A DNA stretch of 64,000 bases from Botryllus schlosseri (GCA_051294905.1 CM119371.1:1304001-1368000); one strand, 5' to 3'. Positions 2,776-63,106 are shown, numbered from the stretch's first letter. A program made the numbers and translations. The notes: generated by a model not told the origin, from the letters alone.

Positions 2776-2781
2776 ATATAG

Positions 2782-30434: not shown

Positions 30435-30692
30435 CTGCGAGCGAGATAGTGTAATGATGATGCGTCCGGCTTCTTGATCGGTAGGTCGTGGGCTCGATCC
30501 CCGACCATGTCAGGCCAAAGACTCGAAAACTGGTATCCGCGGCTATCTTGCTAGGCGCTCAGCAAATACGGATAGCATGGAGGAGAAAAACGGAGCTGTA
30601 GACTAGACGAACTTACTATAAAGGCGGCTGCATCTCCGTCGTCAAAGCTTCTTGATGGTGCGGGCGAAAAAGAATACCATATATCTCTCTCT
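30435..30692 (+). mobile_element. tRNA-derived SINE (duplicated with segment)
   Basis: Same position and flanks as 23092-23349. Confidence 0.85.
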
Positions 30693-32408: not shown

Positions 32409-35400
32409 ATTGATACCTACTGTCTGTATACCACTATATTCCAGATATTGTGAGTTGCCGATTCACAGAGCAGCTGTGCTATGATTCATATCTGTATCAA
32501 ACCATGAGTGCATGATGTGCATATGATGCCGCAGGACATTAAAGGTAAAGTAATAGAGTTTGAATACTTGGTAAATTTTGCACCGATTCACTGTGCCATC
32601 CCTGAATGTTGAATGTCAAGCGCCAACCTACTCATATCAGTTTTACAAATCAGTTCTCATGTCTGACACGGTCGGGGATTGAGACACGACATAGCGGCCA
32701 AGCACCTGGAAGCGCAATCATTCTGCTATCTTGTCTATTAGGAGTTTACGCACCTGTAATAACCTCGAGCCGATGCATTAAGGCAGTTCATTTTAACAAT
32801 GAGTCGGAAATTCCATCGTTACATATGTTAATATCCAACGATTATAGGTTTATTTCAATTACCACTCACGAATGTCAGCCTAACATATTCGAGTTTATTT
32901 TGAAACACCGTATTCTATCGGTCAACGTTCCTGTTTACTACCACCTAAAGTCATAACGTGCCACTGGATGTTTGCTTAATTCTGATTGCCTCAGTCCTAA
33001 ATTACTCCATAAACTGTTATCGCAGGATTGTCGTAAATGCGACATCTAAAGCTTTTATTGCCGATTGCCGTGTACCATCCACATTATGAGCAAGACGATG
33101 CTCAACTAAAGTAAACATTGTTTGTGATAGCGTTGTATCGAGAATCATGTTGCGTGTTGTTCACAAGACCTCATATTAAACTTTGGACGGCCAATGATGA
33201 CGTCGCAAACGCATCCAGCACGACTAGTTTGACGAGAAATTTCGCTTTCACGAAATTTTGAGCGTTACTGTTATCGGTCCGCAATACATTTTATGTCGCA
33301 GTGATAAGCGATTATCTCGCGTACTTGTGTGTGTCCCTTATGTAGTCAAACCAGCAAATAGCTGCTCTGTGATGACAAAAGTGGAGGGGGGGTAGTGCTG
33401 GGGCCAACTATTATCAATTCTTGAGCCGTTATGCGCATATTATCTACGTTCATTTCCTGTCCTGAAAGAAACAAGTGTGCACCGAGGCTGCTGTGATTTC
33501 GATTGAAGCTGTTCTACTGACATTGATCTTACCTGCTACTGACTAAAATAAACCACGTCAAATTGCAAACTGTTTATTCATCCAGACGGGGACAGGAGGC
33601 AGTGTAAGTAGGCCTATATTAGTAAAAGACGGCTAAACTACGGAAACACCGTAATCCAGTGATTACACAGTCAGTTATTAATCTGACGCGACTATCAATA
33701 TATGGTAGCTTCGTAAACGGCTATGACAGGTTTGCCGTTTTTGTGACTAGACTTGACTCGCGTCAATTTATAAAATATGGTGTATAACTCGACTCGATTT
33801 GCGACAATTTGTGTATTGACTCGACTTGTACTCGAGTCAATGAGCCTAACTCGACCAAGCCATAAAACCCGAGACTCGGATGGCCAAGACGGGCATTTCA
33901 TCGTAACTTCGAAGAATAGTAAGCTACCACAACATTATACTTGAATATCAACCAAACGAAGTTTTAAAACGCGAGTTAAGCAGGATTGAGCTTGATAATG
34001 AACTGCGAACACAATGACTTGGACTCAGACTCAATGATCAACACTGTGACTCGACTTAAGCTTTTGAACCCTGAATATGGCTCGGTGCTGAATTGAATAT
34101 GACTCGACTCGTATCGAGTCAAAATTATGAAAGTAGAATTACCTTGTGACTCAGGACCTTGCAACTTGGTAAGCACCATGGGACATTGCTTACGACCTAA
34201 GTGCGACAATTATTGAAGCGGCCTTGAACGAAAGGTACTGCTGATTTCGAATATAAACATTTTAATCTGGTCTGGGCACTGTAACGCGCCCCAAAATTAC
34301 CATGACATTGATAAAAATCGTCATAGTTTAGCCGCGAAAAAATGATCACAAAAATCAATCAATGTGGCGTTTCAATTGTTTGCTACAAAGCTCGAATACA
34401 GGGGTTGTTACCAAAAGTCCCAAGGTTCCGAGTCCCAAGTTAATCTTACTGTATAGTTTTGGCTCGAATGATTAGAGTCATTTTCAATTCATCCCCGCAT
34501 GAAGTCCGAGTCGTTTTGCGGAGGGTCGAATCCGTGTCCAAGTCATTGCGTTCACAGTTCAGTTTCGAGTTCATGAAATGTTTAAACCATATTTTTACAA
34601 CTATGCTTGACTGATATCAAATGCCTCACATTCATTATATGCTGATTTTCATCATTTCTAACAGGTTTTGGCCCTAAATTGATGTACGAGTACTGATAGA
34701 CGAAATACCGATAATAATGCAACTTTACTATTTTGGAAAGTTGCAATGAATTGCAGTATTGGCTGCTAGAGTTCTGAGTCATGTGACTTGAACATGACTC
34801 GAGTTTACTGGAAAAGGCGTGAGCGTATTTTGCAACGAGATCACCAAACAATCTGTGTCTGTCAGTTGCGTCTTCCTTTGATTTCCTTGGCTCTCCCCCG
34901 AACGCTGTCTATTCTCGCTTGCCTTTGGCACTCAATCGTTTTTCGTGACTTTCCGTTGCTTGGACTCGCTGTTGAGTTTTCTGCTACGTCGCACTTGTAC
35001 CACAATCTCGCTCTTTTTGGTTTCGTATCATTCATCAAAGCTGGCTGTCGTACTGACTTTAATTGAAATAGAAGTATAGTCGCATCTGAGGAATATGTAG
35101 AGCGAATGTTTTTCCCATTCTGGAACCCAGAGTTTTGTAACGTTCTGTCTTTTCCTGTGAGCGGCTGAATATTCCGATGACTTTCTTTCAAAACTGGGCG
35201 GTTTGCGTTTGATTTAATATCGTTTCATTTGACGAGTCAATTTCCTTTAGTTTCCGCTTTGTCAGAAATTTCGCTTTACGCAGTCCTTTGAATTCCAAAA
35301 CTTCCCTAAAAGGTAAAAATCGGTTAATTTGAGCGGGAAAAATAGCCCTCGTATCACAGTAATTGATATATTTTCTAAAATATTGGACTGGGCAGAATGA

Positions 35401-35478
35401 TCAAAGGACTCGCATCTGAAAGCGGTATTACCTCTACCAATTCAACTCAACTAGAGAAATGATTCGTCTCCTTACAAA

Positions 35479-35960
35479 TAGGGCTGTCCAAGATCGAGTA
35501 CGTTGGTGATTCGATACTGAATCTCACATTGGGCTTCGAGTCCGGTGGAGTATTCGAGTATCACTCATTATGTGGAAATACCAGCATGTACAATGTCAAA
35601 GTATATATATATACCTTTTACGCTAATACAGAGAATATCATGTCTGTACTTATTTCATCCACAATACCTATCTCATTACAATTTGTGACAATGCTGTGGG
35701 TTGATCATGACTTCATAAATATGCTAATCCCAATATCATTCGTAGCTTTGCACTACATGTTCCGTGGGCTCCGATACGGTCAGTCAAGAGTTCCATGTTC
35801 CCACAGTAGAAAACACCGTGATAATTCTCGTTATCCAATTACATTTCATTGGCAAGGACCATATAATATCAGCACTCCGAAAACTTCACTACTCGACTCG
35901 AATCATTAGAAATATTAATCGGAGTAGATTCGAGTATTCGTATCATTGTGCCCAGCCCTA
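35479..35960. mobile_element. hAT MITE, family of 10853-11379
   Basis: tagggctg...tgtgcccagcccta; internal similarity; TSD degenerate. Confidence 0.8.
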
Positions 35961-37202
35961 CTAACTACTATGTGTTAATTTATTACCTAAATTTATCGTT
36001 TCGATCGTATTTCCACTCTGGAAGCCTTGGAACTGTATTCGTCACATGACATCATACGAAAGCTTTTGTATATAACTACGTTAGCGGAAAGGAAACATCT
36101 GTAAACATGCAGCATTCGCAATGAAATAGGCATGATCGACAAAAAAACATGGCTTTTTTAATGTGACGTAGATTCGGCATTATATTCTTTGTAATTGCAT
36201 GAAAACTACATATTTGCACTATCTACATTTCCTATACCACTATGATGTCACAAGTAGTGGTACTCAACTCGACTCATAATATTCGATTCATAGTCAAATC
36301 ACTAAGCCACTCGATTTTCACAATCCTACCAATGAATACTACAAGGAGATTGTCAGTAATCATCAACTCTCACAAAACATCATGTTTCAATCATGAGTGG
36401 CAGTATCTCAAAATCTATTCGGGAGGCCAACAAGTTCTAAATCACATCAAGAGCGTATTCTTTCACATACTATTTCAGGCTCCACCGAATATATTATTAT
36501 TGATGGTATGCAGACTTGTACAAGCTACCAATCTAGTTAATTGAAGGTCAACTGACAACTGACTAGTTGCCAACAACTAGAAGACATACGTTATCGTTTG
36601 ACGTGAATCGTGATCTCACCGTTTTATCGTGTGATGCAGCCATTCCTACCTCAGAGTCATCACTGCAAAGACTGGCGTGGCCAGGCTGTTAGGAGTTTAC
36701 AGCCTCCCAATTTCAATTAGGACAAACTACTTCGTAAGGACAGACAGTTTCAAACAGAAATGAAGATAAGTAGCGCAATTCTAATGTTATGTGGGAAAAC
36801 ACCTAGTTTGCATATGATAGGTCAAATTTGTTCAAAATTAGGATTTTTTAGGTCAAAAAATGTTAAAATTTTGATTTTTTAGGTCACAATCTTTGTTTTT
36901 TTAGGTAAAAGAATCACCCTAGTCGAAACCATCCATGTCATCAAACTCTCCGTTGGGATTGCCAGCATTCTGATTGCATTTGTGACATGACGATAATGGG
37001 GCACGAAATTTTTCATTATCAAAAAGGGGGCGTGTCAAAGAAAATTTGAGAACCGCTGTTCTAAATCTAATTGAAGTTGCGGGTTTTGCAAAGAGAGTAC
37101 GTATTTTGGAAATCTAGTAGTTTGTTGAAGTCTGGGTACAGCACCTGAATAGTGGTTTGAAGGTACGGTAAGCATGAACGAGTCTACCAACGTTTTCCTT
37201 AC

Positions 37203-37304
37203 CATTCAGCGAGTCGATACAAGTTGCCACTTTGTCGGAAGTGAGGTCTTGAATTGGACGAGAGCACATCCCTTGCACATGCCAATGGCGGAATTGATGG
37301 CGAT
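37203..37304 (-). pseudogene. RBM28: RBM28 RRM3 RNP1 exon relic
   Basis: cag|IAINSAIGMCKGCALVQFKT(frameshift)SDKVATCIDSLN|gtaag. Confidence 0.85.
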
Positions 37305-37693
37305 CTGAATAGAAGATGGCAACTTCTGCTTCATTATCCCAAGCGGGGTCGCCTTAACTTTTGGTGGCCTCGCCATGACTCAACATATCTATCACTGTTT
37401 CAATTCAACAGTGAAAATCTATTAATAGTTTTAAGTTCTTGTTCTATGTTCAGTTTTGGTACAGTAAGTAGGCGTGCAGTACTGGCGTTCAACGGACGGT
37501 GTTCAGCCAGATTGCTTTGTGTCTGAAGCTAGCTTAAAATTGCTTTCACCTTATCATATTAGTCAGTTGGTCAAACTGATACTGAGATGCCAACCATTAA
37601 ATATTGAGGCAAATCTATCCATAGCGGCAAGTTTCCACCTCTGATATGCAAGCGTGTTTGTGAAAGCACAGCCTGTCGTACTGGTCTGGCTGA

Positions 37694-38509
37694 CAGTGTT
37701 GAAATGACTCGGGTTATGTCTTGACTCGAGTCACTTTGCAAAAAATGACTTGACTTGACTTGACTAGGCGTTTCACAAATGTGGATTAACTAGTGACTGG
37801 AAGCAAAATTTACGAGTCAATTTCAAGTCATCAAGAAATCGGTGTTGCTAAAATCGCTGAATACGTTACAATTGTTCGGACTGTTCTCGATACGCTGTTG
37901 TGACTGGTGAGAGCGACAAATCATTCATTCAATCATTTTGCGTTTTACTGAACGTCCATTATTCTATAACAAATATATCGACCGCTTACAGTGTGCGTTG
38001 TCGCATTAGTAGAGTAATATAATAACAACAAGGTCAATGATTGGTCAAATATTGGTCAATGATCATTGGTGCTAGGTGATAACCTTAACCAAATCTCTTA
38101 TTTGATCTAGCATTCAGAATTGAATTCGAATATACTTTACAAGTTTATATTACTAGTCAAGCATTGCCGTAAACCTAATTTATATCTCATGGATATGTAG
38201 TTAGGTAATGCTTCATATCAATTCGTTTCCGCTATCCAAGGTTTTGTGTTCACTATTTTGGGGGATAAATTAATGACTGTGGGTATACAACGCATTTTTT
38301 TCATGTATATTAATCTCTATATTCATCCCTCGGTTTAAAATAAATGACGACTCAATCTGAATTTCGAACAGCTAGTAAAATGCAATGTGATGCCTTGTAC
38401 TTCGAAAAGACAACTTGACTTGAATTGTGACTTGACTTGACTCGAGCCAAAATGCGCAATGAATCAAGATGACTCGTGACTCGAAGGTAGTGACTTGATC
38501 GAAACACTT
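37694..38509. mobile_element. hAT-type GACTCGAGTC MITE (paralogue 59786-60642)
   Basis: cagtgttg...aaacactt; TSD ctggctga/gtggctga; paralogue has exact TSD ctggcgga. Confidence 0.8.
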
Positions 38510-38990
38510 GTGGCTGAAGAGAGAGACATGGCATATTTCGCAGCATTTGCCCATGTCTCAGCAACTACATGATGCTACAATAGAGTTGTGCTACACACAG
38601 ATGGATAGCTTCGCGCAGCATAGAGGCAACTAGAATGGAACATGGTGGTATTGAAAAATAATTTATTTGCAGATCCATTATGGTAGTTTTCTGAGTAAAA
38701 TATGGCTAGTGACAAATTTTTTTCCACAATTTCATGTTTAATTTGATAGTACATCATCTTTAAAGCGCACGACCATTGAAAAAAATCATTTTGGAATATT
38801 TTTGTACCACAACATTTCTCAATAACCGTTAAACATTATTCCCTATCGAAAAACAAAATAGCACGTAAATGCTGGTTTTATTTTCGTTTTAATTGGGGTC
38901 ACTCATTATAAAGTTGCCGACCGGTGGACTAGAGTACGTCAGCCCCACAATACTGACAATTGTTTTGGCTGAATATTGGACCGCACATAC

Positions 38991-39135
38991 CTGGTCGTAC
39001 GAGTCCGTCCCTGCCGAGATACAAATTCCTTTTGCCATCCTTCTCCTTCTTTTGCTTCTTCTGTTGATTTATCATCCTTTCACGTCCGTCCACAGCTTAA
39101 ACAACTCGAATCTGATTCCCGTCCAGGTTGTTGCC
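38991..39135 (-). pseudogene. RBM28: RBM28 RRM3 end/linker exon relic
   Basis: GNNLDGNQIRVV*AVDGRE...GKRNLYLGRDGLVRP|gtatg, compared with RBM28 LDGRQLKVDLAV...RNLYLAREGLIR. Confidence 0.88.
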
Positions 39136-39923
39136 CTGCAATGGTAGTCAGATAGTCGCAAATATGTTTACAGAAAGACTTGTAAAATAGGGAGGACTTT
39201 TTTCAAATGTCATCGGCTTTATTGTCAAATCGTCAGGTTACCTTAAAAACCTCGCCCAAGAAATTTGACTCCATTCCAACCAGTAGATGCCGAGGTCAGT
39301 CTAATTGGTCATTTTTTAATAGTAGTATTTACGGTGACTAATTTCGTCATACCGACATGACCCAAAATCATATTCCAGGTATGCCCGAAGAGGCAGGAAT
39401 GTCTTTTCCACTTGTTTTGATCTTGACAAGGGCCTATGGCGGAGTTTGGATGAAGACATCGCCAGTAAACGAAAAAAGATATGACATGGATTAGCTGGAA
39501 ATTAGTCCACGTCACTGAAATAGACACGTTAAAAATCAATTCATGTTCGAGTCACTCAGGTACTTGATTTTGACAACCCTACTCATGACTAGTACAAGGA
39601 GATTGTCAGTGGTCATCAAATCTCACAAAACATCATTATTCAATAATGAGTGGCAGCATCTCTAAATCTATTCGGGTGGCCAACAAGTTACAAACCCCTT
39701 AGGAGTGTATTTTTTCACATACTTTTTCAGGCCCCGCCGAGTATAATATTATTTACTGGTATGCAGACTTGTGTAAGCTACCAATCTGGATAGTTGAAGG
39801 TCAACTACAAACTGGGTTTTTGATTAGTTCAAGTTGTGGATTTTGAAAAGTGAGTAGTTTTAGTTACAGTACCGCATTAAAAAACTAGTTGCCAATAACT
39901 GGAAAACTCGCGTCATCGTTTTG

Positions 39924-43143: not shown

Positions 43144-44726
43144 TCGTTTTGCGTGAATCGTGATACCGTCTTTGTGTTGTGTGATGTTCTTGCAGCCATT
43201 TCTAGCTCAGAGTCATCACTAAAGAGACTGCCGTAGGGGTGATAGGGGTTGAAAGCCTTCCCATTTTAACTAGAAACCCTTACTTCTAGAAGTGACGATT
43301 CTGTATCCAATATTTCCTATCTCGTTAGCGATTCAGTAATTTCTATTATCAGTGCTGCCAATTACCAACAATCGACAGTGCATAGCGGTATGTGATCTGG
43401 TTAGTTAGTTGCAGAGCTTTAATGGTCCTGGTTCCAGTTACGCATCTCAAACATCCAGCAGTTTGTAGGAGTCTGTTGGTATATATTATTTTAGGAAGTG
43501 GGTAGAGTTTTATCCTCATTGGCCGAATGATTATGATCAAGTGTTGTAAAGGAAAAATCATTCCATAAAATGAAACAGAAAACGAGAAAAGGTAATGTCA
43601 AAGTCACAAAATGTCTGCTTTGCTTGCAGTTTTACCTGTTTTCCAATGAAATTCGACTATGGGCCCCTTGATCGGTACGGAGATGCCAGGATTGTCATCA
43701 AAACTCTTCGAAGCTTTCAAAGCGTGCTCGTGCTTGGTGATGTTATCGAATGCGTATCAGAGCGGTCTTTCGACTCCATCTTTGTTGAAAGTCTTCTCGA
43801 GAATCCATGATAACTGCACCATGTCGATTTTTGAATTGGGACAGGAGAAGCTCCTGAAAACATAATGGAATCACTTTATCGAAGTACTACTCAGAGTAAA
43901 CGAGTTAGTCACACAAAACGGTCAAAGACAAAATATAGAACAGCGCTTCTCTACCTTATCAGCTTGTGTAACGGTAAAATTTCCAAAAATCAAGGTCAAG
44001 ACAGAATGTAATGACGACAACAGCAGACAATTTGAAACCAAGAATCTTAACATTAATCAAATGAGAAATTTGCTACTGTCCGTTTGATATCACAGCTGTT
44101 ATATCAGGTCTCATTAAATACTCTGAGAGACGGGATAAAACCAACAACTCACTTTTGACCATTTGATGTATTTTGGAAGAAACGCGACCAAATGATTGCC
44201 AGATATATACTACTGTCATACATCGCTAATTTGGTATTTTGGAACGTTCTCAAATTTCGGAAAGTATTTATGACTCATGACTGGTCTTTAACGAGTTGTA
44301 GGCTACTTTCAAACATGGTACAGCACTGGAAGCATTGTTCGCTGAAGACTTTCAGGTTAGCATAAGGTGTCGCCAGGTTAGAAAAGGTTAAGAACCACTG
44401 CTCTTGTCATTTAGTATACTATCTTGATGAAAGCACTTCATAGAACACACATATTTCAGCAGAATAGTTGTATCAAGTGATAATCAGTTTAACGATGAAC
44501 TGGTGCCATAGCTATGAATGGATATTGTTAACATGACGGATCGAGTATTTTGAACCGATGCTACTAGTTCGAGGTTCTTATGCGAGGACAGTGGTTCTTG
44601 ACCTTTACTAACCCGGTGAACCGTTACATTAATCTGAAAGGATTTGGAGAACCCCATATTTTCGGCAAGTCACTAATAAGCTACCAGGTAACACATCTAA
44701 TACACTAGCATACTATATAATACTGG

Positions 44727-48200: not shown

Positions 48201-48796
48201 GGAGTCTAACCCACACCAAAGTTGTTGCCTTTTGAAAAGAAATACAAGAATCAGAATCAAGTTGGTGCTTTTAAATAGAGCCACATACAACGAGTGTGAT
48301 ATCAAAAAGGCACTTGCAACCGTCTAATTAAAATGAGCCTCTGATATTTGCTTTCAAGTTGCACACTTGCCTCGAATACGTTTTAGGTTAATTTTGATTT
48401 TTGATGACTGGTCTAGAGTAGGGCAGCACCACAATACTGACAAGCTTGTGTTGGATATTGGCCCTCATGTACCAGGTCGAACGAGACATTACCTGCCGCC
48501 ATACGAATTCCTCTTGTTCTAATTTTCATGATTTCGGTTATTCTGTTGACTGGGAATCCTTTTCATATCAGTACTGCTCACTGCTTGATACGCTTGAATC
48601 TCTTTCCCGTTCAGGATCTTGTCTGAAACGGCAGCCATAGATTTATTTACAGACAGACTTGTACAAACTACCAATCTAGTTAGTTGGTGATCAACTAACT
48701 ACCGATTATTCAGTTAGGTTCTAGTTGCGGATTTTGAAAAGCGAGTAGTTCTATTTCTAGCTTATGTTGTGGATTTCATAAGGTTAGTAGTGATAG

Positions 48797-49307: not shown

Positions 49308-52300
49308 AGTTCTAGTTGCACAATTAGAAAATAAACAACTAGAAAACACGCGTCTTCTTATGAAGTAAATCATGATACCTGTGTTCTGTCGTGATAGGTT
49401 CTTGCGGTCATCACTACTGACACGGGCATAGCCAGGGTTTGAGGGTCGAAACCCCTGCCCTTTGACGCTCGAAACCAGTTCCTAATAAAATGCAGTTTCT
49501 ATCTCATTTGCAATGCAAAGTTTGTATTATAATCAGAGTTAGATGTGTTTTATTTAGATAGTATGGGATTTCCAAATGCCGTTAGGTCTGCATGTACTTG
49601 TAGTTGCGAGTTTTGCAATAGTCGCAATAGTGAATTAAAACTAAACACAGACACATCTACTTACATTTTCGTCTTAATTCAGCACGCCGACACAGTTTGT
49701 CGCTTCTTCCCAGGTCTTGAATTGGACGAGAGCACATCTCTTGGTCATTTTTCTCTGATTCAACTCCCGAAATAACCGTCTCTTGTCGATTCGGTCCATA
49801 TTTCGCAAAATTCGCGATCTTTTGGGGTATTTTAAACTAAAAAGAAAGACAAATTGTCAAAAAGGTGGAATTTTGGGCGAAGGGAGAACAGTTCTTGAAA
49901 AAGGAGGACAAATCCTCCTAAATGTGGACGTATAGTCAGAAGTTAATGCTTTCTACTTGAGAAGCCTTGCTGACTACTTTGACCACCTCTGCATACCGTC
50001 CACTTTTCCAGTTGTTGTGACGTCAGGGTCAAAATCTCAGTGCGTCACACATATATTCCTCACCATGTTAGTTATGAAAGCAGGCAACAATCTACACCAC
50101 CCAAGAAACGCGGACTGCAGATTTGTACGAACTACCAATCTGGTTAGTTGACCGTGAAGTGAACCAACTACTGGCTTTTTTGAGTAGTTCTAGTTGTAGC
50201 TGCAAGTTTTGTAAACTGAGCAGTCCTAGTTATAGTTTCAAGTTTTGAATATCCAGTGGTTTGTACATGTCTGGCGGACTACTGACTAGCAATACAATGA
50301 GACACGTTACAAAATAAGCTCTACCTTGGCATAGAAAATCCGACAAAGCCTGGGCCAAACCGTCTTCCAAAACATCGAGACAGATTTTGAGCAAATACAG
50401 TCCGTACTTTGTGACCATCGTGAGACGTCTTGGAAGCGTATTGCTTCTTGGACTCGACAACTGAAAGCAAGCAAGCACGAAAACCAAGCACACATAGCAT
50501 GCGCTTGAAATTGCGTTTACTGATCTCTCATGGGTGTATCTATTTAGCCAATGTCGCCAAGTCCACTACTTCTGTAGCAATAATGCCGGCAACTATACCG
50601 ACGTAAGAGACACGGCGCAAATTTTCGTTTGTATGTTCATATTATGTTGTATTGCACAAAATCAGGGCAATTTCATTATACCTGTAAGAATTGGTAAAGC
50701 GATAAATATAGAGAGCAGACAACCAGATGGAGATAGAAGCCGTCATTTATGTAAATCGAGTAAAATAATGTAACAGTTCCTGGTGGAGTCGAGACAGTTG
50801 CTGTCATTGATGCTACACCAGTAGGATAATAAAATATTTCCTGGCGGAGTCGAGATTGTTATCAAAATGTATGCTTCTCAAGTATAGTTGACGACTTTGA
50901 CTACATATCTACGCTCGCCTCTTAACGGGTCTCCAAATATACACTGTCACTTTTAAAGTAGATTTTGTGGTATCGGGTACGGGGGACTGTAAGACTAACA
51001 CCATGATCACAAAGTACAAACAACTGGAAATAACATCACTAAGCACCTGGAACGGAGGAAATAGATATTTGAAGACGTTTTACATTTTAACACGTGGATG
51101 TATCAGTTTTGCAGAACCGGACTATGATTTGGTCGGGGAATTATTTTGACTAAGCTCAAATGGCATGCGACATGTGACATGCGACTCACTTTTGACTAGA
51201 TTGGAAAGCAGGACTTGTACTTGAACTAGATTATAAATTTATGACATCAATTCTACTTTAATAGCAACTCTAACTACTTCGCGCACCCATGCCAGAGTAG
51301 CAAGCAGATGGATTTCACATGATATTCTGTCTAAAGCCAGGTGTGATTCCCTTCATGTGGGGTTGGATGCGGAGCGAAGCGTTTTCGTTGGGGACAGCGT
51401 CGTATTGAGGTTGACATCTTCGTAGACACTCGATTCAGGAATCGGTTGCCCGGATTTTGTCAATGTCTTTTCCTTTTCGACGCAATCTCGATTATTAACA
51501 AATACTAGAAAATTTTCAGCTTTCCCAAATTAGATAAACTGACACCTACAGTGTTTTTCCGAATTATATTACAACTAGAATGACAGTACACTGGTTTTTC
51601 AGATTAGATTAGAATTAGAATAAGAATCGTTGAATTCGCAAAAACTTGTAAACTGATTTAAATTACGGATTAGAAAAAAGTACAACAACAAAAGTAAGTT
51701 CATTTTCGTAAGCACTAAAATAGCGAATTTCTGTACAGCAAGCACGGCTCGTCTCTCACTGTACAGTTCTCCTATAGCAGTGGTTTTCAACCTTGTTTTC
51801 GCGGACCCCTTTTGGACCGTCAGGGACCCCTCGGATCCCGTATAGTTTTCGATAAAATTTAGTTTTAAAAAAATAGGCCTAGAAACTGTGTTATATCTGT
51901 ATTCATGAGCATGAATATTAGTAGTGAAAAGAACGAGTATATCATGGCTGTTACTGGTAGTGACGAGAACACACAAATATTACGATTTGAAAACATTAAT
52001 TTGTCAAATAATGTAATTCACAATTTACTCACTTTGAACCTCATCAGCATGTCTGTCGGAGATTGATGTTTGTAAGGCTCCGACTGATCGGTTGAGATTG
52101 TCATGCGAATCTTTTGCGCAAGGAATTCTGATCCACCGTAGGAACAGCCTTTCAATGAGATGTTATGTGTGAATGATCTTGTGATTGCAATCCAGTGTAA
52201 TAAAATCAGAAGTGGTTACATAAAGTAGAATCAGTAAACCTATATATCTATATATAGCACAGCAGCCTCCTATAATGATCTATTTCTTATAGTTTACAGG

Positions 52301-53987: not shown

Positions 53988-54784
53988 GTTATGAGCTACA
54001 TAATCACCGATTGTTTTCACACGGCTATGCACTGCATCCTTATTATTGATTCAAAATGGAGGAAGGAAATCATTCAATAATTCCAATTTTCCGTGGGCTT
54101 GAGCCAAGTTATTTACGTGGAAAATGGACATGGTAAATGCCTCAATTCGACTGGAGACACTTTGTGTATTGTACTCGTGGTTCGACCAACTCATATGACT
54201 CAAGGTATTCCATATGACTCGATTCAAGTGTCCCGTAACAAGTCGAGGAACTATTCGCGAGACAAAAGTTGGAGCAACGTATCATCAGGTAGCGAGCTCT
54301 AATATCCCTACTCTCCTTGATCGTTTTGCACCTTACGTTCCAAGAAATAAGACAGAAGTCTCAACACAAGCATGTGGGTTTTTCACAGACGCATAGAAAC
54401 GGCCTATGACGTCCCCGCAAGATCAATCTTCAGGATGAGATAGTCTTTCAGCTTTGATTAAAATTAGATTAGTGGCATTTCACTCACTTCTGCTGCTACA
54501 TACTGAAAGGTGTTGATAGAGAAAACCAACTTTAAGTATTAAGAAAGCAAAGTGATCTCTCTATAAATCAGCGATAACCTCTCTTTCCGTTTTTGTGGAT
54601 AGGATTCGCTCATGCCACTTTGCTAACACACAATCAAAATGGCAAATCCTGTTACCGGTGCAATATTTTATATGTCACATCACAATTGCAGGATGTGGCG
54701 TAGGTAAAATATTTTGGTATTGGGTAAAGTTCACAGAAGGCTTAACGTAAAATTTCCGTTTAAACTGGATGACACATTTCTTAC

Positions 54785-57700
54785 CACCTTGTAAGGTCTT
54801 CTGAGATAACTGAAATCTAACAAACCTGTCAGGTGTCGTTCTGGTGGCCTGAATCGGCCACACTACCGGTATTTGGTTTGCCATCTTTTTTCTTGAGTGG
54901 CCGAATCTTCACAAGATATTCTCTTGAAACGATATCTGTTGGGATCCGATTTAGTATCGGAACCATTTGAGAAGTCACCTTCGATTTCTTGCTTCCGTTC
55001 TGTGAGAAATTTCGCTGCTTACTGTTGTTTGATTTCAGGAGCTATCCTAGAAAAGGGGAATCGGTTGACATGACCGAGAAATACAGCCCACGTATCTGAT
55101 ATCTTAATAGATATATATAATCAGAAGTGGCCCCTAGGCTAATAGAGATGTCAATAGTGTAGAGCGGTGGTTCTCACAGCTTTTAAAGCGCCACCAAACT
55201 TGTGTTATTTTACATCTCAAGACCCGAGCCTCGCACATCGTAAAAATGCATTTCTGACACAAGTAAGCCTATGCAACGCTTTACGAGCACGTATGAATCA
55301 GAGAAGGTGCAGACAAAAAGACGATCAATATCAAAGTACCTGTACTTTTCCAGAGTACTCATGTAGATTTTGCCTACTTCCACTTCTGTTTAACCATATT
55401 TAAACGGAACCGCTTACTTTTTCAACTTTTGACGTAGTAAACTAGAAAGTCGTTTTGTGATAGATTCCCAAGACTTTTATGTGCACATTTACATGACGTT
55501 AAAGTAGCGTCTGTATCAAGGTCATCAAATATATTTTTAAAAATGGAACCAATTATTAAAAAAATATTTCTGGGCTCATTTTCAATTCATTAATTTGTAT
55601 TATCATGTCTGCCATTTAGCGACAAGCCAAATTACACAGCGACGTGCAATTTAGTTAGTACATTGAACGCTCTCGTATTTGACATTTCGTGCTGGTGACA
55701 TCATATTTTGTGCTACGATTGTTGATATACGCTGTTCTTTTGAATTCTCTACTAGTTGATGCCGATTACCCCTGACAAGTGTTAGCCGAATATATTCGTG
55801 TTCATTTCAATATGAATATACTATTCAATAGTTAGTTAATTGTATATTTAAAGGTCCTAGTTCTACTTCTAGTTTAGCATCTCAAAAATCATGTAGTTGC
55901 ACAAGTTTGATAATTTATTCAAGAAGTGGTTATAGTTTCTGCATCATTGGCTGAATGATGATCAATTGTTGTCAAGGAGGAGGAATGGCGGCAGAAAATT
56001 GAACAGATACTGATGAAAGTTTATGTAAGATATGACATCACAAATATCAACATCACTTGGAGTTTTACCTGTTTTCCAGTGACAATTCAACTATTGGCGT
56101 GTGATTGATCCCAAAATGTCGGGATTGACATTGAAACTTCTCAAAGCTTTCTAAGCGTGTTCGACTCTCTGTGTTTGAAGTTGATGAATGCGCATCAGAG
56201 CTAATTCTAACTCCATGTATGTTAAAATTCTTCAGATGTCGCATCAGTAGGGATTCCGTCATAATTAGACCATGTCGATCTTTGTATTGGAACAGGAGAA
56301 GCTCCTGAAAACATGTCATCGGTTTATCGAAACACTCATAGAGTAAACGTGTTAGCCAATAGCAAAGAAAAGCTATACGGTAGGGCTGTTCAAAAATGAC
56401 TTTTATTCCGGATTCCAGCCATTCACTGACTAAATTGTCATGTTACTCTAAAAAAAAAACGCTCCAAACCAAATTTGGTTAAATTCTAACAAGTATAAGC
56501 ATCTGCATATCCAATTAACATTTAAAATTTATTGGAAAAAATTGAAAAAAAAAATTCAAATTTTTCTGTCCACCCCATAAAATTGTTGGGTTGTCTTTAA
56601 AGACGATGCAAAACAAATTTGACTCAATTCCAACTAGTAGAAGCCGAGTTATGTGAATGTGAGTTTTTCATTGATATATCTCGGATTATTCTTGAATTGT
56701 GTAGATTTGACTCAATCTTTATTTGAAAAAAATCTAGTTATAATTCTAAATCTAGCATAATTTGAAAAAAGTATGTAGCTTTGAGCTATCATTCTTATTC
56801 CAATCTAATTTGGATGAGTTGAAAATGATTTAATTGTCTAAATCTGGCTGAGAGAACCCCTGGACTGACCGTGTTAACCCTGGTTGGGCCACTGCTTCAA
56901 GATAGCCTAATTAGAAAGCATGCTAATAGTTGTGATTGGGACATACCTTCAACTTTTTGACACTTCCTGGAAGATTGTCAGTACAAAGTCGAGTTGTACG
57001 ATCCATTTATCAGTTTGGCCCGTTTCACATTTTCAATTGTCACACGTTTCTTCCATTCTATTGCGTTGAGACGTTCAGTGGCTTGCGTTCCTACACAAAT
57101 CACAGGTGGTAATGTGATCAGCATTGCAATTTTTTACAAGTGTCAACCATAGGTGGCGACTTACAAAATAGCTTCACGCAGGGTTGTTATGACTCGATTT
57201 TTTGGTGACTCGACATGACTCGAGTCATTTTTTCAAATGACTCGACCAGAGTCAATTTTTGTAAGACTCGAATGACTCGAACCAAGTCACATGACTCAAG
57301 ACTGGGACGGCCAAGAAAGAAATTTCATTGTAACTTCGAAGAATAGTAAAGTCACCACATTATTGGTATGACGTCCATCAGTCCTGATACCTGGAAAATA
57401 TGGCCAGGAACTGTTAAGACTGAAGAAAAGTGAGATATTCTATATCACTCAAGCAGAGTTGAAAAAAGTGGGTTGAATCGGATTGAACTCAAAACTGAAC
57501 ATTGAACACAATTACTGTGTTTCCATGCAGTGCCGATGGACGACCAAAAGGCCATGACGCATGCATTGTGCATGTCGGCCGTGTTTCCATGACCAGACCT
57601 AATCCAACCGTGTCTTAGCCGAACAAGGCTGACATGTGCGTTTTTATCTCACTTCTTCACTATAAATTTCACACATCACAAGACTGCAATAAAATGACTC

Positions 57701-60700
57701 GGTAGAAAGGAGCAGATACGAATTGATTTGACCATTCAATCAAACAACCCATTTTGACCTGGAACATGTAGGTAGGCCGAAATCGGACATATAAACATAG
57801 CCCTGGGAATGAGTTTTGGAAGTTGCAACGCCTTGCATTTAAAGCTCGAAAGCCCGTCTTTTTGAAATGCCGATTCTATCTCCTATCCCCTCATTTGCAA
57901 TTCAGTATTTCGTAACACAGTATTATCAGTTGTTAGTTCGTTGTGTTTGAGTTAGTGAGGCATCTAATTTTCACAAGTTGTTAGTTCCAGAACAGTTATT
58001 CTGAAACGAGGGGGCGTGAAAGCATCTGCGAAGCTGCAGTCAAATGAAAAAAATGGTCGCACTCTGCGCGGTTTACCTCCAATTCATTATTATTGCTCCG
58101 TGTATAGGTCCGAATTTCATAGTAGAGGATTCTCACATCAGCAGTAATGATCAGGGCAATTATTTTTGACATGTCAAAAAAACTCAAAATTAGGTCAAAA
58201 CTGTCGCGTTAGGTCAAAAAATGTCACAATTTGTTTACAAAGTTTTAACTTTTTGCAACCAGCATTTCGTTCATATTGTAGATTTCGCACTGTCAGTAAA
58301 CTTTTCATTTGACATTTTACCGCTTGTAGCCTACTTTATAGGTCTACCGTTGTAGAAGGCCCATTGTCTAGTCATTGTGAATAATAAATTCAATTAATAC
58401 AAATAGGTCGCCATGATGTTATGCTCAACGTACGGCAATATCCCAACTAAAGCAAGACTGCGTGGGCATTGCATGGTTCTTATATCAACAAGGATTATAC
58501 TGCTACACATTTTATTTAATTCTACCATAATGCGTGATGTAACTACTGCAATTCTTCATAGGGCCAGATTTCAGTAAAATGAGTTTTTTCATGTAAAAAT
58601 TTGTGAGTTATTGAGGCGGAAAAGTATTGTCAGGCCAAACTACTCGGTCAGGACAGACAGTTCCAACCAGAAGTGAAGATAAGTAGTAGCCCATAGTTCT
58701 AATGTTATGTGGGAAAACACCTAATTTGCATATGTTACGTCGAATTTGATCAGAATTAGTATTTTTAGGTCAAAATCTACCATTTTTTTTGGTACAAAAA
58801 ACCAACCTAGTCAAAACCATCCATGTCATCAAACTCTCCGTTGGGACTGCCAGCATTCTGATTGCATTTGTAGTATGACAATAAGGGGGCGTGAAATTTT
58901 TCACTATCAAAAGGGGGGCATGCCAAAAAACTTTAATAACAGCCGTTTTAGATCTAATGGAAGTTGCAAATTTTGCGAAACGAGTACAGATTTTGGAAAT
59001 CCAGTAGTTTGTTAAAGTCTGGTTACGGTACCGGAATAGTGATTTGAAATTACGTTAGACATGAACGAGTCTACCAACGTTTTCCTTACCATTCAGTGAG
59101 TCGATACAATTGGCCACTTTGTCGAAGGCGAGGTCTTGAATTGGATGAGAGCATGTCCATTGTCGATGGTGGAATCGATGGCGATCTGAATGGAAGATGT
59201 CAAAAATGTGATAGCAACGTATTGAAATATATGAATATGTGTTGGAAATTAATGTACCATTGTACACACTTGATATCAAAAAAGAAGCATCATCGCGTTT
59301 CTCATTAAATTCAGCTTTTTGGTATTTTCTTTCTACTTCCCCACACTTGCGACAAACAAATTTTGAGTTCAGTTTGATGTTTGGATGACTGTTATAGAGT
59401 AGGGGTCGGCAACCTCTGGGGTCATAATCCCAAGCAGGGTCGTCGTAAATTTCCGTGGCATCGCCATGACTCAACATATCTATCACTGTTTCAATTCAAT
59501 AGTGAAAATAGGCTAATAGTTTGTTGTTCTTGATCTATGCTTAGTTTAGTTACCGCAAGTAGGCGTGCGGAACTAGCTCTCAACGGACGATGTTCAATCA
59601 GGTGGATTTCTGTCTGAAGCAGTCTTAAAATGGCCTTCACTTTATCATATTTTGTCGGTTGGTCGGACTGATACTGAGATGCCAACCGTTGAATATTGAG
59701 GCAAATCTATCCCTAGCGGCAAGTCTCAAGGTGTGATATACAAGCGTGTTTGTGAAAGCACAGCCTGTCGTAGTGGCCTGGCGGACAATGTTGAGATGAC
59801 TCGAGTCATGACTTGAGTCAAGTCATACTTGAGTCACCTTTTTCGTACGACTCGGCGTTTCAGAAATGCAGATTGACTCGTGACTCGAAGCAAAATTGAC
59901 GAGTCAATTTCAAGTCATCAAGAAATCGCTGTCGCTAAAAATCAATGTATACTAAAAAAATGTTTCTGATTGTTCTCGCTACGCTTCATTCAATGATTTT
60001 GCGTCTTACCGAACGTCCATTATTATATTACGAATACATTGACCGCTTACCGCCTTGCAGCGTACGTTGTCGGGTCGCAGTAGTAAAGTAATGTAACTAG
60101 GTATCTATCTCTGTTCTATAGACTGGTCATTGCTGCTAGGTGATCACTGTAACCAAATCTCCTGTATGATATAATATTCTAAATCGAATTTGAATATATT
60201 TGGTTCACAAGTTTATATTACTAGTCAAGCATTGTGTAGGCTAACTTTGTATTTCATGGATATGTTATTGGGTAATGTATCATATCAATTCAATTTCGCT
60301 ACCGGTATCTCAGGTTTTGTGTTCTATTCTCTATTTTGGCTATTAAATTAAAGACTGCAAATATAGAACAGTTACGTATTTTACCAGTACTGTGCATTCG
60401 GGAGCTATACAACGCATTTTTACATGTATATTTATCTCTATATTCATCCCTCGATTTAAAATAAATGTCGACTCAATCTGAATTTTGAACAGCTAGCAAA
60501 ATGCAATGTGATACTTTGTACTTTGAAAAGACAACTTGACTTGATTTGTGACTTAACTCGTGACTCGACTTGACTCGAGTGGAAATGTGCAATGAATCGA
60601 GATTACTTGTGACTCGAAGGTAGTGACTCGATCCCAGCACTGCTGGCGGAAGAGACTGACATGACATATTTTGCATCATTCACCAATGGCTCAGCAAGTA

Positions 60701-62281
60701 CATGATACTACAATAGAGTAGTGCAAGACACAGATGGATAGCTTCTCGCAGCAGAGAGGCAACTAGAATGGAACATGGCGGTATTGAAAAATAATTTATT
60801 TGCAGTCCCATTATGGTAGTTTACTGTAGAAAATGGTTGCAACCTAAAATTTTATCACAATTTCATGTTTAATTTGATACAACATCATTTTAGAGCGCAG
60901 TGACCCTTGAAAAGAATTTTTGGAATATTTTTGTACGACAACATTTCTCAATAACTGTTGCTTCAGCAATACTTGAAAAACATTTTTTGCGTATTGGAAA
61001 ACAAAATGAGGTCGCATGTAAATGCTGATTTTATTTTCGTTTTAATTGGGGTCGCCGATTAAGAAGCTGCCGACTGATGGTCTAGAGTAGGCCAGCCCCA
61101 CAATACTGACGATTTTTTTTTGCGAAAAAACTGCTAATAAACCAATGATATTGGACCGCACATACCTGGTCGTAAGAGATCTTCCCTGCCGAGGTAAAAT
61201 TCCTCTTGCCACCTTCCTCCTTGTTTTACTTCATCTGTTGATTTATCATCCTTTCACGTCTGCTCACAGCTTGATTAAGTCGAATCTCATTCCCATCCAA
61301 GTTGTTACCCTGTAATGGTAGTCACAAAGTCACACATATGTTTACAGACAGACTTGTACAATGGGGATGTTAAAAAAACGAATATTTTTCAAATTTCGTC
61401 GGCTTAATAGTCAAATAGTCAGGTTATATTTAAAAAAACGTTGCACACAAAATTTGACTCAATTCCAACCAGCAGATGCCGAGGTCATTCAAATTGAAAT
61501 TATGCTCGTCTTTACATAATAGTAGTCACGGACACGAATTTCGTCACACCGACACGACCAAAAAACGTGTTCCAGGTATGTCTGAAGAGGCACGGATGTC
61601 TTTTCAACTTGTTTTGATCTTGACAATGGCCTATGATGGAGTGTGGATGAAGACATCGCCAGTAAACGAATAAAAGATATGACACGGATTAGCTGGAATT
61701 TAGTCCAACATCATTGAAATAGACACGTTTAAACGATGGTGAGATAATTTTCAAATAGAGTAGGACTACTTTGTGCGCTGAAATTAAATGACCTGACGAT
61801 TTGACAACCAAGTCGATTAAATTTGAAAAAAAAAGTTTTTTTGAACACCCCCATCTTGCAGCCAATGCTAGCTCAGAATCATGACTACTAACAGCGTGAG
61901 GATGGCTTTTGAGCGTCAGAACTCCTATTTCAAGCTCGAAGCCGATTCTATCTCCAATACATCTAATTAATTCGTGATTCAGTAGTTTGTATTATCATCA
62001 GTTTATTAGTTAGTTGTGTTTTAGTTGGTACGGCATGGTATTTTCAAACGTTGTTAGTTATAGATCTGAATAAAGTTTGAAATTTTTGTGAAGTGAGTGC
62101 AAATCCAGTAGTTTGTACAAGTCTGGTTACGGTGCCGCAATAGTGGTTTAAAAGTAAGCATGGGCGTATCTACACACGTTTTTCAGCGAGTCGATACAAT
62201 TTGTCACTTCTTCAAAAGTGAAGTCTTGAATTGGACGAGAGCACATCCCTTGCACATGCCAATGGTGGAATTGATGGAGAC
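54785..62281 (-). pseudogene. RBM28: RBM28 (Nop4) unprocessed partial pseudogene, copy B (with internal duplication)
   Basis: Exons ~62181-62281 (VSINSTIGMCKGCALVQFKT), 61166-61309 (GNNLDGNEIRLNQAV), extra RNP1 exon 59090-59185, 56947-57090 (GTQATERLNAIEWKKR...TRLCTDNLP), 56069-56304 (ELLL...PIVELSLENR), 54785-55046 (IAPEIKQQ*AAKFLT). Stops and frameshifts; introns homologous to copy A. Confidence 0.88.
58151..58810. mobile_element. MITE, inverted relative of 53148-53987
   Basis: Reverse-complement similarity throughout (ggtcaaaa arrays, gggaaaacacctaatttgcata). Confidence 0.75.
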
Positions 62282-63106
62282 CTGAACACCAGATGTCAAA
62301 GTGACAGCAACATATTAAAATATACGAAAACGTGCTAGAAAACAATGAACATGTATCTGATCACCATACGTATAATGCATCTAACATCAAAAAGGAAGCA
62401 TCAAGTATCTCATTAAATTCGACTTTTTATATTTGCTTTCGACTTCCACGCACTTGCCGTTTACACACATTGAGTTCATTTTGATTTTTGGATGGCGATT
62501 TTGATTCACATAATTGGAATTTTTGGTCAACTTGACTTGAGTCGAGCAATTTTCTTGAAAAATGGAAAATGACTCGAGTCAACTTGAAACACTTTATGTG
62601 TGGTGTCACCTTGTAGGCCTACTACAGTCATTGCGCAAGTCTCAATGAAGTCATATGACTCAAACATTATATACAACTTGATTGAAGTCTCGTGTATCAG
62701 GATCAATACTTGACTCTGCGACTCGAGTCAAGACGAGTCAAGTCATGACTCGATTTATTACAAGCCTGAATGTAGCCACGGTATTGTCATAAAAGGATAT
62801 TGTTACGAAGATCTTGTCTATCCGCGTTCCTGTTGCTCATTATCAGTTACTCAAAAAGATGATTCTTGCCATTTTAAAAGCTAGTACTGGGAAATTATTA
62901 CCAAAAGCCTGCGTCTCATTCAGACAATCTATTTGGTGAAACAACTTATACTCAAGTACTCATCAGAACTTCTACTTTTGAATATTACTTCAAGTAGTTG
63001 TAACAAGTCTCAAATCACCCATAATTGATGAGAAATTAAGGGGTCGACTTCAGACTTCCTACCAAGTGTCGGAGATTTATCTAGGCTCCCCCTTGTCATA
63101 TCATCT

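What the first reader, a model, noticed from the sequence alone, without database searches (positions are those of the whole stretch)
34800..62500. Array of disabled, intron-containing RBM28/Nop4 3'-half copies
Seen: 14 exon relics on the minus strand form two colinear partial genes plus extra duplicated exons. All cover RRM3 to the C-terminus; no RRM1/RRM2 exons were recognised. Copies are strongly diverged and each has stops or frameshifts. Known: RBM28 is normally a single-copy, essential 60S ribosome-biogenesis factor. Inference: a housekeeping-gene fragment has been repeatedly amplified as DNA (segmental duplication or transposon capture) rather than by retroposition. The ORF track largely misses it.
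Basis: partly seen in the sequence, partly recalled or inferred. Interest (0 to 1): 0.7.

Follow-up and report, generated by a model that had tools for sequence, protein, structure and literature searches.

The report
Decayed RBM28 half-gene copies in array
This stretch holds 14 broken, intron-bearing exon remnants of the back half of the ribosome-assembly gene RBM28, part of a multi-megabase array of dead copies in one chromosome region, which is an ordinary kind of genomic junk on an unusually large scale.

Summary
Searching the window with this genome's own RBM28 exons (intact gene on contig C9) finds exactly 14 minus-strand relics between 34,798 and 62,335. They are exons 4-9 only, covering RRM3 to the C-terminus. 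All 14 carry a frameshifting indel or an in-frame stop. Similarity continues into the intron flanks, so the copies were made as DNA, not by retroposition.

The window is a small sample of a much larger structure. Exon 6 matches 81 places, exon 8 matches 56 and exon 4 matches 22. All lie on the minus strand of C1 between 0.24 and 3.80 Mb. Exons 1 and 2 (RRM1/2) have no match there.

A tree of 46 exon-8 sequences shows deep lineages, each with 4-14 near-identical members scattered over the region. This fits an old ~12-kb tandem array that was later copied in large blocks. Substitutions are even across codon positions (63/53/58), and exons are about as alike as their flanks, so the copies evolve neutrally. 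All 44 array exon-8 relics examined are disabled. The RNA reads laid gave no support for transcription.

Verdict: an unprocessed partial-pseudogene array. It is a new member of a known kind, notable mainly for its scale.

The parts
62136..62284 (-). Unit B, relic of RBM28 exon 5 (second half of RRM3, RNP-1 'KGCALVQFKT')
   Evidence: tblastn with the C9a exon, E 7e-8. DNA identity 74% with 1 frameshifting indel.
61164..61321 (-). Unit B, relic of exon 6 (linker after RRM3, 'KRNFYLGRE')
   Evidence: tblastn E 3e-7. DNA identity 81%, 5 frameshifting indels, 1 stop.
59076..59194 (-). Unit B, extra exon-5 relic (E5') lying between E6 and E7
   Evidence: tblastn E 1e-3. DNA identity 74%, 1 frameshifting indel. 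The same E5-E6-E5' order recurs at many other array sites.
56944..57094 (-). Unit B, relic of exon 7 (linker and start of RRM4)
   Evidence: tblastn E 1.6e-8. DNA identity 82%, 1 frameshifting indel.
56068..56304 (-). Unit B, relic of exon 8 (RRM4)
   Evidence: tblastn E 5e-12. DNA identity 77%, 4 frameshifting indels, 3 stops. A DNA-run contig matches it exactly.
54869..55072 (-). Unit B, 5' part of the last exon (E9)
   Evidence: tblastn E 1.3e-8. DNA identity 64%, 1 stop. Only 172 of 597 exon nt are alignable.
50310..50470 (-). Unit A, relic of exon 4 (first half of RRM3). This is the 5'-most exon found anywhere in the array.
   Evidence: tblastn E 4e-10. DNA identity 85%, 5 frameshifting indels.
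49617..49760 (-). Unit A, relic of exon 5
   Evidence: tblastn E 7.6e-10. Pfam RRM_1 E 0.032 on this piece alone. One stop in the parental frame.
48468..48620 (-). Unit A, relic of exon 6
   Evidence: tblastn E 4.5e-15. DNA identity 79%, 2 stops.
45940..46119 (-). Unit A, relic of exon 7
   Evidence: tblastn E 2.6e-13. DNA identity 80%, 2 frameshifting indels, 2 stops.
43637..43853 (-). Unit A, relic of exon 8 (RRM4), lineage 'a' in the tree
   Evidence: tblastn E 1.3e-17. DNA identity 80%, 2 frameshifting indels, 1 stop. Tree.
38989..39147 (-). Unit C, relic of exon 6
   Evidence: tblastn E 4.7e-11. DNA identity 82%, 2 frameshifting indels, 1 stop.
37189..37313 (-). Unit C, relic of exon 5 (E5')
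   Evidence: tblastn E 3e-8. DNA identity 81%, 1 frameshifting indel.
34798..35331 (-). Unit C, relic of most of the last exon (E9, C-terminal tail '...DLVAKYAHAFSSKLE')
   Evidence: tblastn E 7.8e-11. DNA identity 70%, 6 frameshifting indels, 1 stop.
36719..39534 (.). 2.8-kb E6-E5' segment, duplicated at 58632-61733 (77-80% identity). Copies at 88-91% identity lie elsewhere on C1.
   Evidence: Self-blastn and own-genome DNA search.

Best explanation
Window 34.8-62.3 kb holds three head-to-tail, decayed units of an unprocessed (intron-retaining) partial pseudogene of RBM28/Nop4. Each unit derives from a DNA copy that began in intron 3 and ran to the 3' end of the gene (exons 4-9, RRM3 to C-terminus).

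Inferred history:
1. One partial duplication of the C9 gene landed on C1. Lacking promoter, start codon and RRM1/2, it was dead on arrival.
2. Unequal exchange amplified it into a direct tandem array with a period of about 12 kb.
3. The units diverged neutrally into distinct lineages. They also suffered internal rearrangements, such as the extra E5' and a deletion that fused E8 to a following E6.
4. Much later, multi-unit blocks of tens of kb were copied repeatedly in direct orientation. This spread the relics over C1:0.24-3.80 Mb, with a few strays at C1 8.3 and 13.0 Mb and on unplaced contigs C21 and C32.

The array has no coding function. Its main effect is probably structural, as a large field of direct repeats prone to further non-allelic recombination.

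Shown: relic identity, disablements, retained introns, restriction to exons 4-9, copy distribution and strand, two-tier phylogeny, neutral substitution pattern. Inferred: the order of events and unequal crossing-over as the mechanism.
For: - Identity and colinearity.
- Introns retained and intron flanks alignable, with all 14 of 14 relics disabled.
- Controls gave 0 hits in reversed and shuffled windows.
- Period: E8 relics lie at window 43.7 kb, 56.2 kb and at C1:1,372,241, spaced 12.4 and 12.2 kb apart. The array continues past the right end of the window.
- Genome-wide, exon 6: 81 of 85 matches are on C1:240,769-3,799,194, all on the minus strand.
- Exon 8: 56 of 63 matches are on C1:236,614-3,794,283, all minus. 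Three more are on C21/C32, 2 on C1 (+) at 8.3 and 12.9 Mb, and 2 on C9.
- Exon 4: 22 of 26 matches are on C1:0.24-3.69 Mb, all minus.
- Exon 1: 0 of 7 matches on C1. Exon 2: 0 of 5 matches on C1.
- Tree of 46 E8 sequences (44 array copies plus C9a and C9b): deep lineages a, b, c and d, each with 4-14 members. Members are 93-96% alike but lie megabases apart. The a-x-b neighbour order recurs at several sites.
- Window 1-19 kb has 89-95% identical copies at C1:0.575 and 2.40 Mb, so the duplicated blocks are large.
- Neutrality: segregating sites within lineages by codon position are 63/53/58. Exon identity is close to flank identity: 0.945 vs 0.944, 0.946 vs 0.933, 0.932 vs 0.915, 0.958 vs 0.945. 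Differences between lineages are also uniform, for example a versus b at 22/24/24. By contrast C9a versus C9b is 3/2/16.
- All 44 of 44 array E8 relics examined have a frameshift, stop or truncation, while the C9b E8 is clean.
- The three best-preserved units still have stops in E5 and E9.
- RNA: in the bulk RNA run, bins holding relic exons with low DNA copy number have depth 0-0.09. Of 537 laid reads, 532 fit only partly, which marks them as repeat-derived.
Against: - The tool states that the counts are lower bounds (only the best candidates are scored). I did not inspect every unit, so an intact or expressed copy somewhere in the 3.6 Mb is not excluded. 13 of the 54 distinct C1 E8 relics were not fetched.
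- Only about 6% of one bulk RNA run was read, with no positive-control locus and no small-RNA library, so silence is not shown.
- The strict single-strand orientation of more than 50 units over 3.6 Mb would also suit a uni-strand small-RNA cluster.
- The tree root (C9a plus C9b as outgroup) is assumed. Where the founding copy came from, and the order of events, are inferred.
- No telomere repeat was seen in C1:1-3000, so the chromosomal setting (subtelomeric or pericentromeric) is unknown.
Confidence: 0.85

Rival explanations
1. The array is a functional non-coding locus. For example, it could be a uni-strand piRNA or siRNA cluster, or a long non-coding transcription unit, whose RBM28-derived sequence regulates the intact C9 gene. 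This would resemble Su(Ste)/Stellate-type pseudogene arrays (comparison recalled, not from a call).
For: All array relics share one strand over 3.6 Mb. The copies derive from an expressed housekeeping gene, and the region is repeat-rich.
Against: The relics are only 64-85% identical to the parental exons, which is poor for small-RNA targeting. Evolution is neutral with no conserved core. The bulk RNA reads laid gave no unique coverage of the relics. No small-RNA data were available.
Confidence: 0.06
2. The RBM28 fragment was captured by a transposon (Helitron, Pack-type or another transduplicating element), and the copies were spread by transposition.
For: A gene fragment with its introns is what such elements carry. 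A few copies lie elsewhere and in the opposite orientation: C1 8.30 Mb and 13.04 Mb on the plus strand, plus C21 and C32. The window contains active-looking hAT elements.
Against: 56 of 63 E8 matches and 81 of 85 E6 matches sit in one region on one strand with head-to-tail periodicity. The flanking non-RBM28 sequence is co-duplicated in large blocks. Lineage structure follows block position rather than random insertion. The stray copies also start at E4 and resemble array lineage b, as expected for secondary segmental copies. Terminal repeats and target-site duplications were not searched for.
Confidence: 0.05
3. Some units still encode, or recently encoded, a truncated RRM3-RRM4 protein family, so the array is a dying or partly live gene family rather than dead on arrival.
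For: In lineage d the E7 and E8 frames are open over 69-73 of 78 codons in three copies. The C9b locus shows that 5'-truncated RBM28 copies can keep open exons.
Against: The same lineage-d units have stops in E5 and E9 and a 16-codon deletion in E6, plus frameshifting indels at the end of E8. Codon-position counts within lineage d are 11/8/6, and between old lineages they are uniform. No upstream exon or start was found, and E1 and E2 are absent from C1.
Confidence: 0.03
4. The array or its disablements are assembly artefacts, such as mis-joined haplotigs or uncorrected long-read indels.
For: Repeat-rich regions are error-prone. Many of the disablements are 1-2-nt indels.
Against: Copies differ by 5-35% in substitutions as well as indels, and form a structured phylogeny. 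Stops arise by substitution too. Short-read-derived contigs of a DNA run reproduce E8 of unit B exactly, and other unique stretches with 0 differences, though that run may be the assembly's own sample.
Confidence: 0.01

Closest known systems
Unprocessed (duplicated) pseudogenes inside segmental duplications, as catalogued in human and mouse (PMC1484586, seen only in the search listing and abstract)
   Same: DNA-level copies that keep their introns. They are often partial, disabled by stops and frameshifts, evolve neutrally, and are embedded in larger duplicated blocks.
   Different: The scale and regularity differ. Here at least 54-81 relics of one essential single-function gene lie on one strand, in a two-tier (tandem then block) array filling parts of 3.6 Mb of one tunicate-like chromosome.
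Low-copy-repeat or 'core duplicon' regions such as the human 22q11 LCR22s (PMC6724673, search listing and abstract only)
   Same: Mosaic, high-identity blocks carrying gene fragments, expanded in direct orientation and prone to non-allelic recombination.
   Different: No evidence here of a transcribed core gene or of positive selection. Population variability was not examined.
Amplified RRM-gene or housekeeping-derived arrays: RBMY on the human Y, and Stellate/Su(Ste) derived from CK2-beta in Drosophila (recalled, not from any call)
   Same: A housekeeping or RRM gene copied many times in tandem, with many degenerate copies.
   Different: Those arrays retain expressed, functional or small-RNA-producing members. 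No such member or RNA was found here.
RBM28 / yeast Nop4, the parental gene family
   Same: Relics align to exons 4-9 (RRM3, linker, RRM4, basic tail) of the genome's own RBM28 and of Styela clava RBM28-like.
   Different: The relics lack RRM1 and RRM2, a start codon and an open frame, so they are not members in any functional sense.

Membership tests
RBM28/Nop4 (origin of the relics) | Sequence is closest to RBM28 rather than to other RRM proteins | tested here: met
   Parental exon 7: 105 hits at E<=1e-3, top hit Styela clava RBM28-like at 76% identity. All hits with a specific gene name are RBM28. Exon 1's best solved-structure match is Nop4, E 1.2e-15. Relics are 64-85% identical in DNA to the parental exons, flanks included.
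RBM28/Nop4 (functional member) | Four RRMs in one open reading frame | tested here: not met
   Only exons 4-9 (RRM3-RRM4-tail) are present. E1 and E2 have 0 matches on C1. All 14 of 14 relics are disabled. The full four-RRM colinear locus is on C9.
Unprocessed (duplicated) pseudogene | Retains the parental exon-intron structure | tested here: met
   Exon order E4 to E9 is kept, with spacers between exons. Alignments extend 15-76 nt into the intron flanks at 69-84% identity.
Unprocessed (duplicated) pseudogene | Disabling mutations and neutral substitution pattern | tested here: met
   14 of 14 window relics and 44 of 44 array E8 relics are disabled. Codon-position counts are 63/53/58, and exon identity is about equal to flank identity.
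Unprocessed (duplicated) pseudogene | No productive expression | tested here: inconclusive
   Depth is 0-0.09 in unique relic bins of one bulk RNA run. Only about 6% of that run was read and there was no control locus.
Processed pseudogene / retrocopy | Intronless, colinear with the mRNA, with a poly(A) tail | tested here: not met
   Relic exons are separated by 0.5-2.3 kb spacers at the parental intron positions.
Transposon-captured gene fragment (Helitron or Pack-type) | Dispersed insertion sites in both orientations | tested here: not met
   56 of 63 E8 matches and 81 of 85 E6 matches lie in one 3.6-Mb region on one strand.
Transposon-captured gene fragment (Helitron or Pack-type) | Terminal repeats or hairpin and target-site duplications at the unit ends | not tested
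   Unit ends were not defined precisely enough to look for them.
piRNA or small-RNA cluster | Dense, strand-biased small RNAs that map uniquely | not testable with these tools

The most novel reading that the evidence does not exclude
The one-strand, multi-megabase field of RBM28 3'-half relics could be more than junk. It could be a uni-strand small-RNA or heterochromatin-forming locus, for example a piRNA-type cluster or a centromere-adjacent higher-order repeat. That would be a tunicate counterpart of pseudogene-derived regulatory arrays, built from an essential ribosome-biogenesis gene. In that case the amplification would have been favoured rather than merely tolerated.
Probability: 0.06. 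Interest if true: 0.65.

Novelty: new member of a known kind. Interest (0 to 1): 0.3.

Why it matters
1. Annotation. Dozens of RRM-bearing fragments could be mis-called as 'RBM28-like' genes, or could absorb reads meant for the real gene. The ORF track misses them because no relic keeps a long frame.
2. Genome dynamics. The array is a clean, datable record of two phases of duplication, an old 12-kb tandem phase and a younger block phase at 93-96% identity. It sits in a tunicate-like genome, where large segmental duplications are little described. Its neutrally evolving exons and introns could calibrate local mutation and indel spectra.
3. Instability. A 3.6-Mb field of direct repeats is a likely hotspot for copy-number variation by non-allelic recombination.

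It does not by itself reveal a new mechanism.

Tried and rejected
- Pfam on single stop-to-stop pieces. I sent 128 of the 181 minus-strand pieces of at least 40 aa from 34-64 kb. Only one touched RRM_1 (49677-49856, E 0.032, below the cut-off). The rest was noise, because the exon pieces are too short and broken.
- PDB search with one relic piece gave nothing meaningful.
- Rfam on the whole window gave 0 families.
I used own-genome searches and fetched stretches instead.
- The look-up of sequencing runs listed no RNA holder.
- A telomere repeat at the start of C1 was not found in the first 3 kb, so 'subtelomeric' is not claimed.
- Pfam on 20 long window ORFs found only a Hermes-type hAT DNA-binding domain at 3353-3940. 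No other gene is co-amplified in the window.
- Literature searches: 'RBM28 + pseudogene + tandem' returned 4 papers, none relevant. For 'RBM28' combined with tunicate terms, the 10 papers listed of 2,734 all had 0 occurrences of RBM28. I therefore found no description of such an array, but these two searches are not exhaustive.
- Expression of lineage-d units and in-silico splicing of the C9 genes were not attempted.


Full report
WHAT THE WINDOW IS

The window is G000:C1:1,304,001-1,368,000 of a 495.5-Mb, 219-contig eukaryotic assembly. C1 is 41.8 Mb long. GC content is 36-45%. There are no Rfam families and no long intact ORFs. The best protein match of the RBM28 gene in this genome is to the ascidian Styela clava.

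CHECKING THE OBSERVATION

Single relic pieces are too short and damaged to be recognised alone. In a Pfam scan of 128 of the 181 minus-strand pieces of at least 40 aa, one reached RRM_1 at E 0.032. A PDB search of one piece gave nothing.

The way in was the genome itself. A relic exon used as query found many matches on C1, plus two open copies on C9. One C9 exon retrieved 105 proteins at E<=1e-3. The top hit was 'RNA-binding protein 28-like [Styela clava]' (P0001, 960 aa, 76% identity). Every hit with a specific gene name was RBM28.

P0001 aligns colinearly over residues 8-960 to C9:426.8-435.5 kb (locus C9a, about 9-10 exons, all exon frames open). It aligns over residues 234-960 to C9:3.378-3.413 Mb (locus C9b). 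Exon 1 of C9a has yeast Nop4 as its best solved-structure match (E 1.2e-15).

tblastn of P0001 against the window gave 12 HSPs at E<=1, all on the minus strand. With C9a's own exon frames the window gives 17 HSPs at E<=1e-3. Sixteen are on the minus strand. The single plus-strand HSP belongs to the intronic tail of the exon-2 query piece. The reversed window and 10 shuffles gave none.

The HSPs make exactly 14 relics:
- Unit B: E5, E6, E5', E7, E8 and part of E9 (62,284 to 54,869).
- Unit A: E4, E5, E6, E7 and E8 (50,470 to 43,637).
- Unit C: E6, E5' and E9 (39,147 to 34,798).

There is no relic of exons 1-3. DNA alignments to the parental exons are 64-85% identical. They extend into the intron flanks at 69-84% identity over 15-76 of 80 flank positions. 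Every one of the 14 relics has at least one frameshifting indel or in-frame stop.

THE LARGER STRUCTURE

The window is a small sample of a much larger array. A 2.85-kb piece (E6-E5') has copies at 75-94% identity at dozens of sites in the first 3.8 Mb of C1, almost all on the same strand (118 matches, 40 of 7,678 candidates scored).

Matches by exon:
- E6: 81 of 85 matches lie on C1:240,769-3,799,194, all minus. The rest are 2 on C9, 1 on C1 at 13.05 Mb (+), and 1 weak match on C3.
- E8: 56 of 63 matches lie on C1:236,614-3,794,283, all minus (54 distinct sites). There are also 3 on unplaced contigs C21 and C32, 2 on C1 (+) at 8.31 and 12.91 Mb, and 2 on C9.
- E4: 22 of 26 matches lie on C1:0.24-3.69 Mb, all minus.
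- E1 (RRM1 and part of RRM2): 0 of 7 matches on C1.
- E2: 0 of 5 matches on C1.

The tool warns that these counts are lower bounds. The amplified segment thus starts in intron 3 and runs to the end of the gene.

Units sit in clusters of 2-4 with 6-25 kb between neighbours. The spacing is 12.4 and 12.2 kb in and just beyond the window, where the array continues. Clusters are roughly 100 kb apart.

TWO PHASES OF DUPLICATION

I built a tree of 46 exon-8 sequences with about 200-nt flanks. It contained 44 array copies (41 of the 54 distinct C1 sites plus 3 from C21/C32; 13 were not fetched) together with C9a and C9b.

With the C9 genes as outgroup, the array copies form one group, split into deep lineages:
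- Lineage a has 14 members, including unit A of the window.
- Lineage d has 4 members.
- Lineage c has 6 members.
- Lineage b has 14 members.
- There are also singletons, such as unit B of the window.

Members of a lineage are 93-96% identical yet lie megabases apart. Different lineages differ by 12-33%. The same neighbour order (a, then an intermediate unit, then b) recurs at about 0.24, 0.39, 0.68, 1.35, 2.35, 2.55 and 3.55 Mb.

The RBM28-free left part of the window has 89-95% identical copies at C1:0.575 and 2.40 Mb. The rest of it is dispersed transposons.

This is the signature of an old tandem array whose multi-unit blocks were later re-duplicated in direct orientation. Shared rearrangements support the same order of events. 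The E5-E6-E5' arrangement recurs at many sites, and the E8-then-E6 junction of lineage a recurs at several sites.

NEUTRALITY AND FUNCTION

Within lineages, segregating sites by codon position sum to 63/53/58. Exon identity is close to flank identity in all four lineages. Differences between lineages are also uniform (a versus b, 22/24/24). Comparisons with the C9 genes show third-position excess (for example 9/9/22), and C9a versus C9b gives 3/2/16. All 44 of 44 array E8 relics have a frameshift, stop or truncation, while the C9b E8 is clean.

The three best-preserved units (lineage d) have open E7 and most of E8, but stops in E5 and E9 and a deletion in E6. The stray plus-strand copies at 8.30 and 13.04 Mb are also disabled and also begin at E4.

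For RNA I laid one bulk RNA-seq run (about 6% of it read), one single-cell run, one uncertain run and one DNA run on 43,000-62,500. Bins with relic exons and low DNA copy number had bulk-RNA depth 0-0.09. Of 537 laid bulk reads, 532 fitted only partly, so they derive from repeats elsewhere. This gives no support for transcription. It does not prove silence, because there was no control locus and no small-RNA data.

MECHANISM

The best reading (confidence 0.85) is as follows. One DNA-level partial duplication of RBM28, from intron 3 to the 3' end, landed on C1 without promoter, start codon or RRM1/2. It was amplified by unequal exchange into a ~12-kb direct tandem array and decayed neutrally. 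Later it was carried along as large blocks were duplicated across about 3.6 Mb.

The relic identities, the structure, the distribution and the neutrality are shown. The order of events and the recombination mechanism are inferred.

Rivals:
- Small-RNA or heterochromatin locus (0.06). The one-strand orientation fits, but the relics are too diverged from the parent and there is no RNA support.
- Transposon capture (0.05). The distribution argues against it, though unit termini were not examined.
- Partly live RRM3-4 gene family (0.03). No intact unit was seen and the substitution pattern is neutral.
- Assembly artefact (0.01). The divergence is structured, and DNA contigs reproduce the relics exactly.

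COMPARISON WITH KNOWN THINGS

This is an unprocessed (duplicated) partial-pseudogene array inside segmental duplications. The kind is well known from mammalian genomes (PMC1484586 and PMC6724673, seen only as listings and abstracts).

It resembles amplified arrays such as RBMY or Stellate/Su(Ste) in form only. Those comparisons are recalled, not from any call, and those arrays retain functional or RNA-producing members, which were not found here.

It is not a functional RBM28/Nop4 family member, because the four-RRM open-frame criterion fails. It is not a retrocopy, because introns are present.

I found no description of an RBM28 array in the two literature searches made.

VERDICT

Biologically it is an ordinary class of sequence, namely neutral pseudogene amplification. 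Novelty: new member of a known kind. Interest: 0.3.

Noticed in passing
L022/L019/L020/L023 = G000:C9:3,378,682-3,413,296 (minus strand): A second RBM28 locus (C9b) spreads over about 35 kb. All recognisable exons from residue ~216 (RRM2) to the C-terminus are open. Exon 8 is 91% identical in DNA to C9a, with differences at codon positions 3/2/16. The first ~215 codons (RRM1) were not found within 8 kb upstream. It may be a constrained, 5'-truncated paralogue.
   Followed up: partly
window 2779-4564 (ORF 3353-3940, +): A ~1.8-kb element carrying a Hermes-type hAT transposase DNA-binding domain (Pfam E 4.7e-9). Copies at 92-97% identity lie on at least 10 other contigs, so the hAT family looks recently active.
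   Followed up: partly
window 19790-26572 versus 27466-33134: A local direct duplication of about 6 kb in several collinear pieces at 90-94% identity, upstream of the RBM28 relics. Content unknown, with no Pfam hit on its ORFs.
   Followed up: no
window 16446-17110: An internal tandem repeat, seen as multiple offset self-matches at 67-84% identity.
   Followed up: no
window 39889-40209 and 42966-43265: Short tandem repeats that translate in several frames as 'WPATKF/AGHE...' motifs on both strands. They lie in the ~3.3-kb stretch between E8 of unit A and E6 of unit C, which is much shorter at sister sites (about 1-1.5 kb).
   Followed up: no
window 48859-49509, 53416-54066, 55369-56019, 59275-59925: Very high-copy repeats, with summed DNA word depth of 30,000-84,000 against tens to hundreds in unique bins. 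These account for nearly all RNA reads laid on the stretch.
   Followed up: no
window 45103-45171: A sharp ~70-nt pile of single-cell RNA reads (bin depth 42, with 240 and 109 loose-ended reads at its two edges). It is probably a short repeat or small-RNA-like element expressed from elsewhere.
   Followed up: no
G000:C1:8,303,009-8,310,654 (+) and C1:13,043,866-13,051,035 (+); C21:64,456 and 221,399; C32:73,657: Stray disabled RBM28 E4+ copies outside the main array. Those on C1 are in the opposite orientation. Those on the unplaced contigs C21 and C32 are lineage-a copies nearly identical to each other, and may be unplaced pieces of the array.
   Followed up: partly
L019:2291-3327 (C9:3,385,890-3,386,926, minus strand): ORFs of 252 and 141 aa inside an intron of C9b look transposase-like by eye but have no Pfam match at E<=1e-3.
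   Followed up: partly
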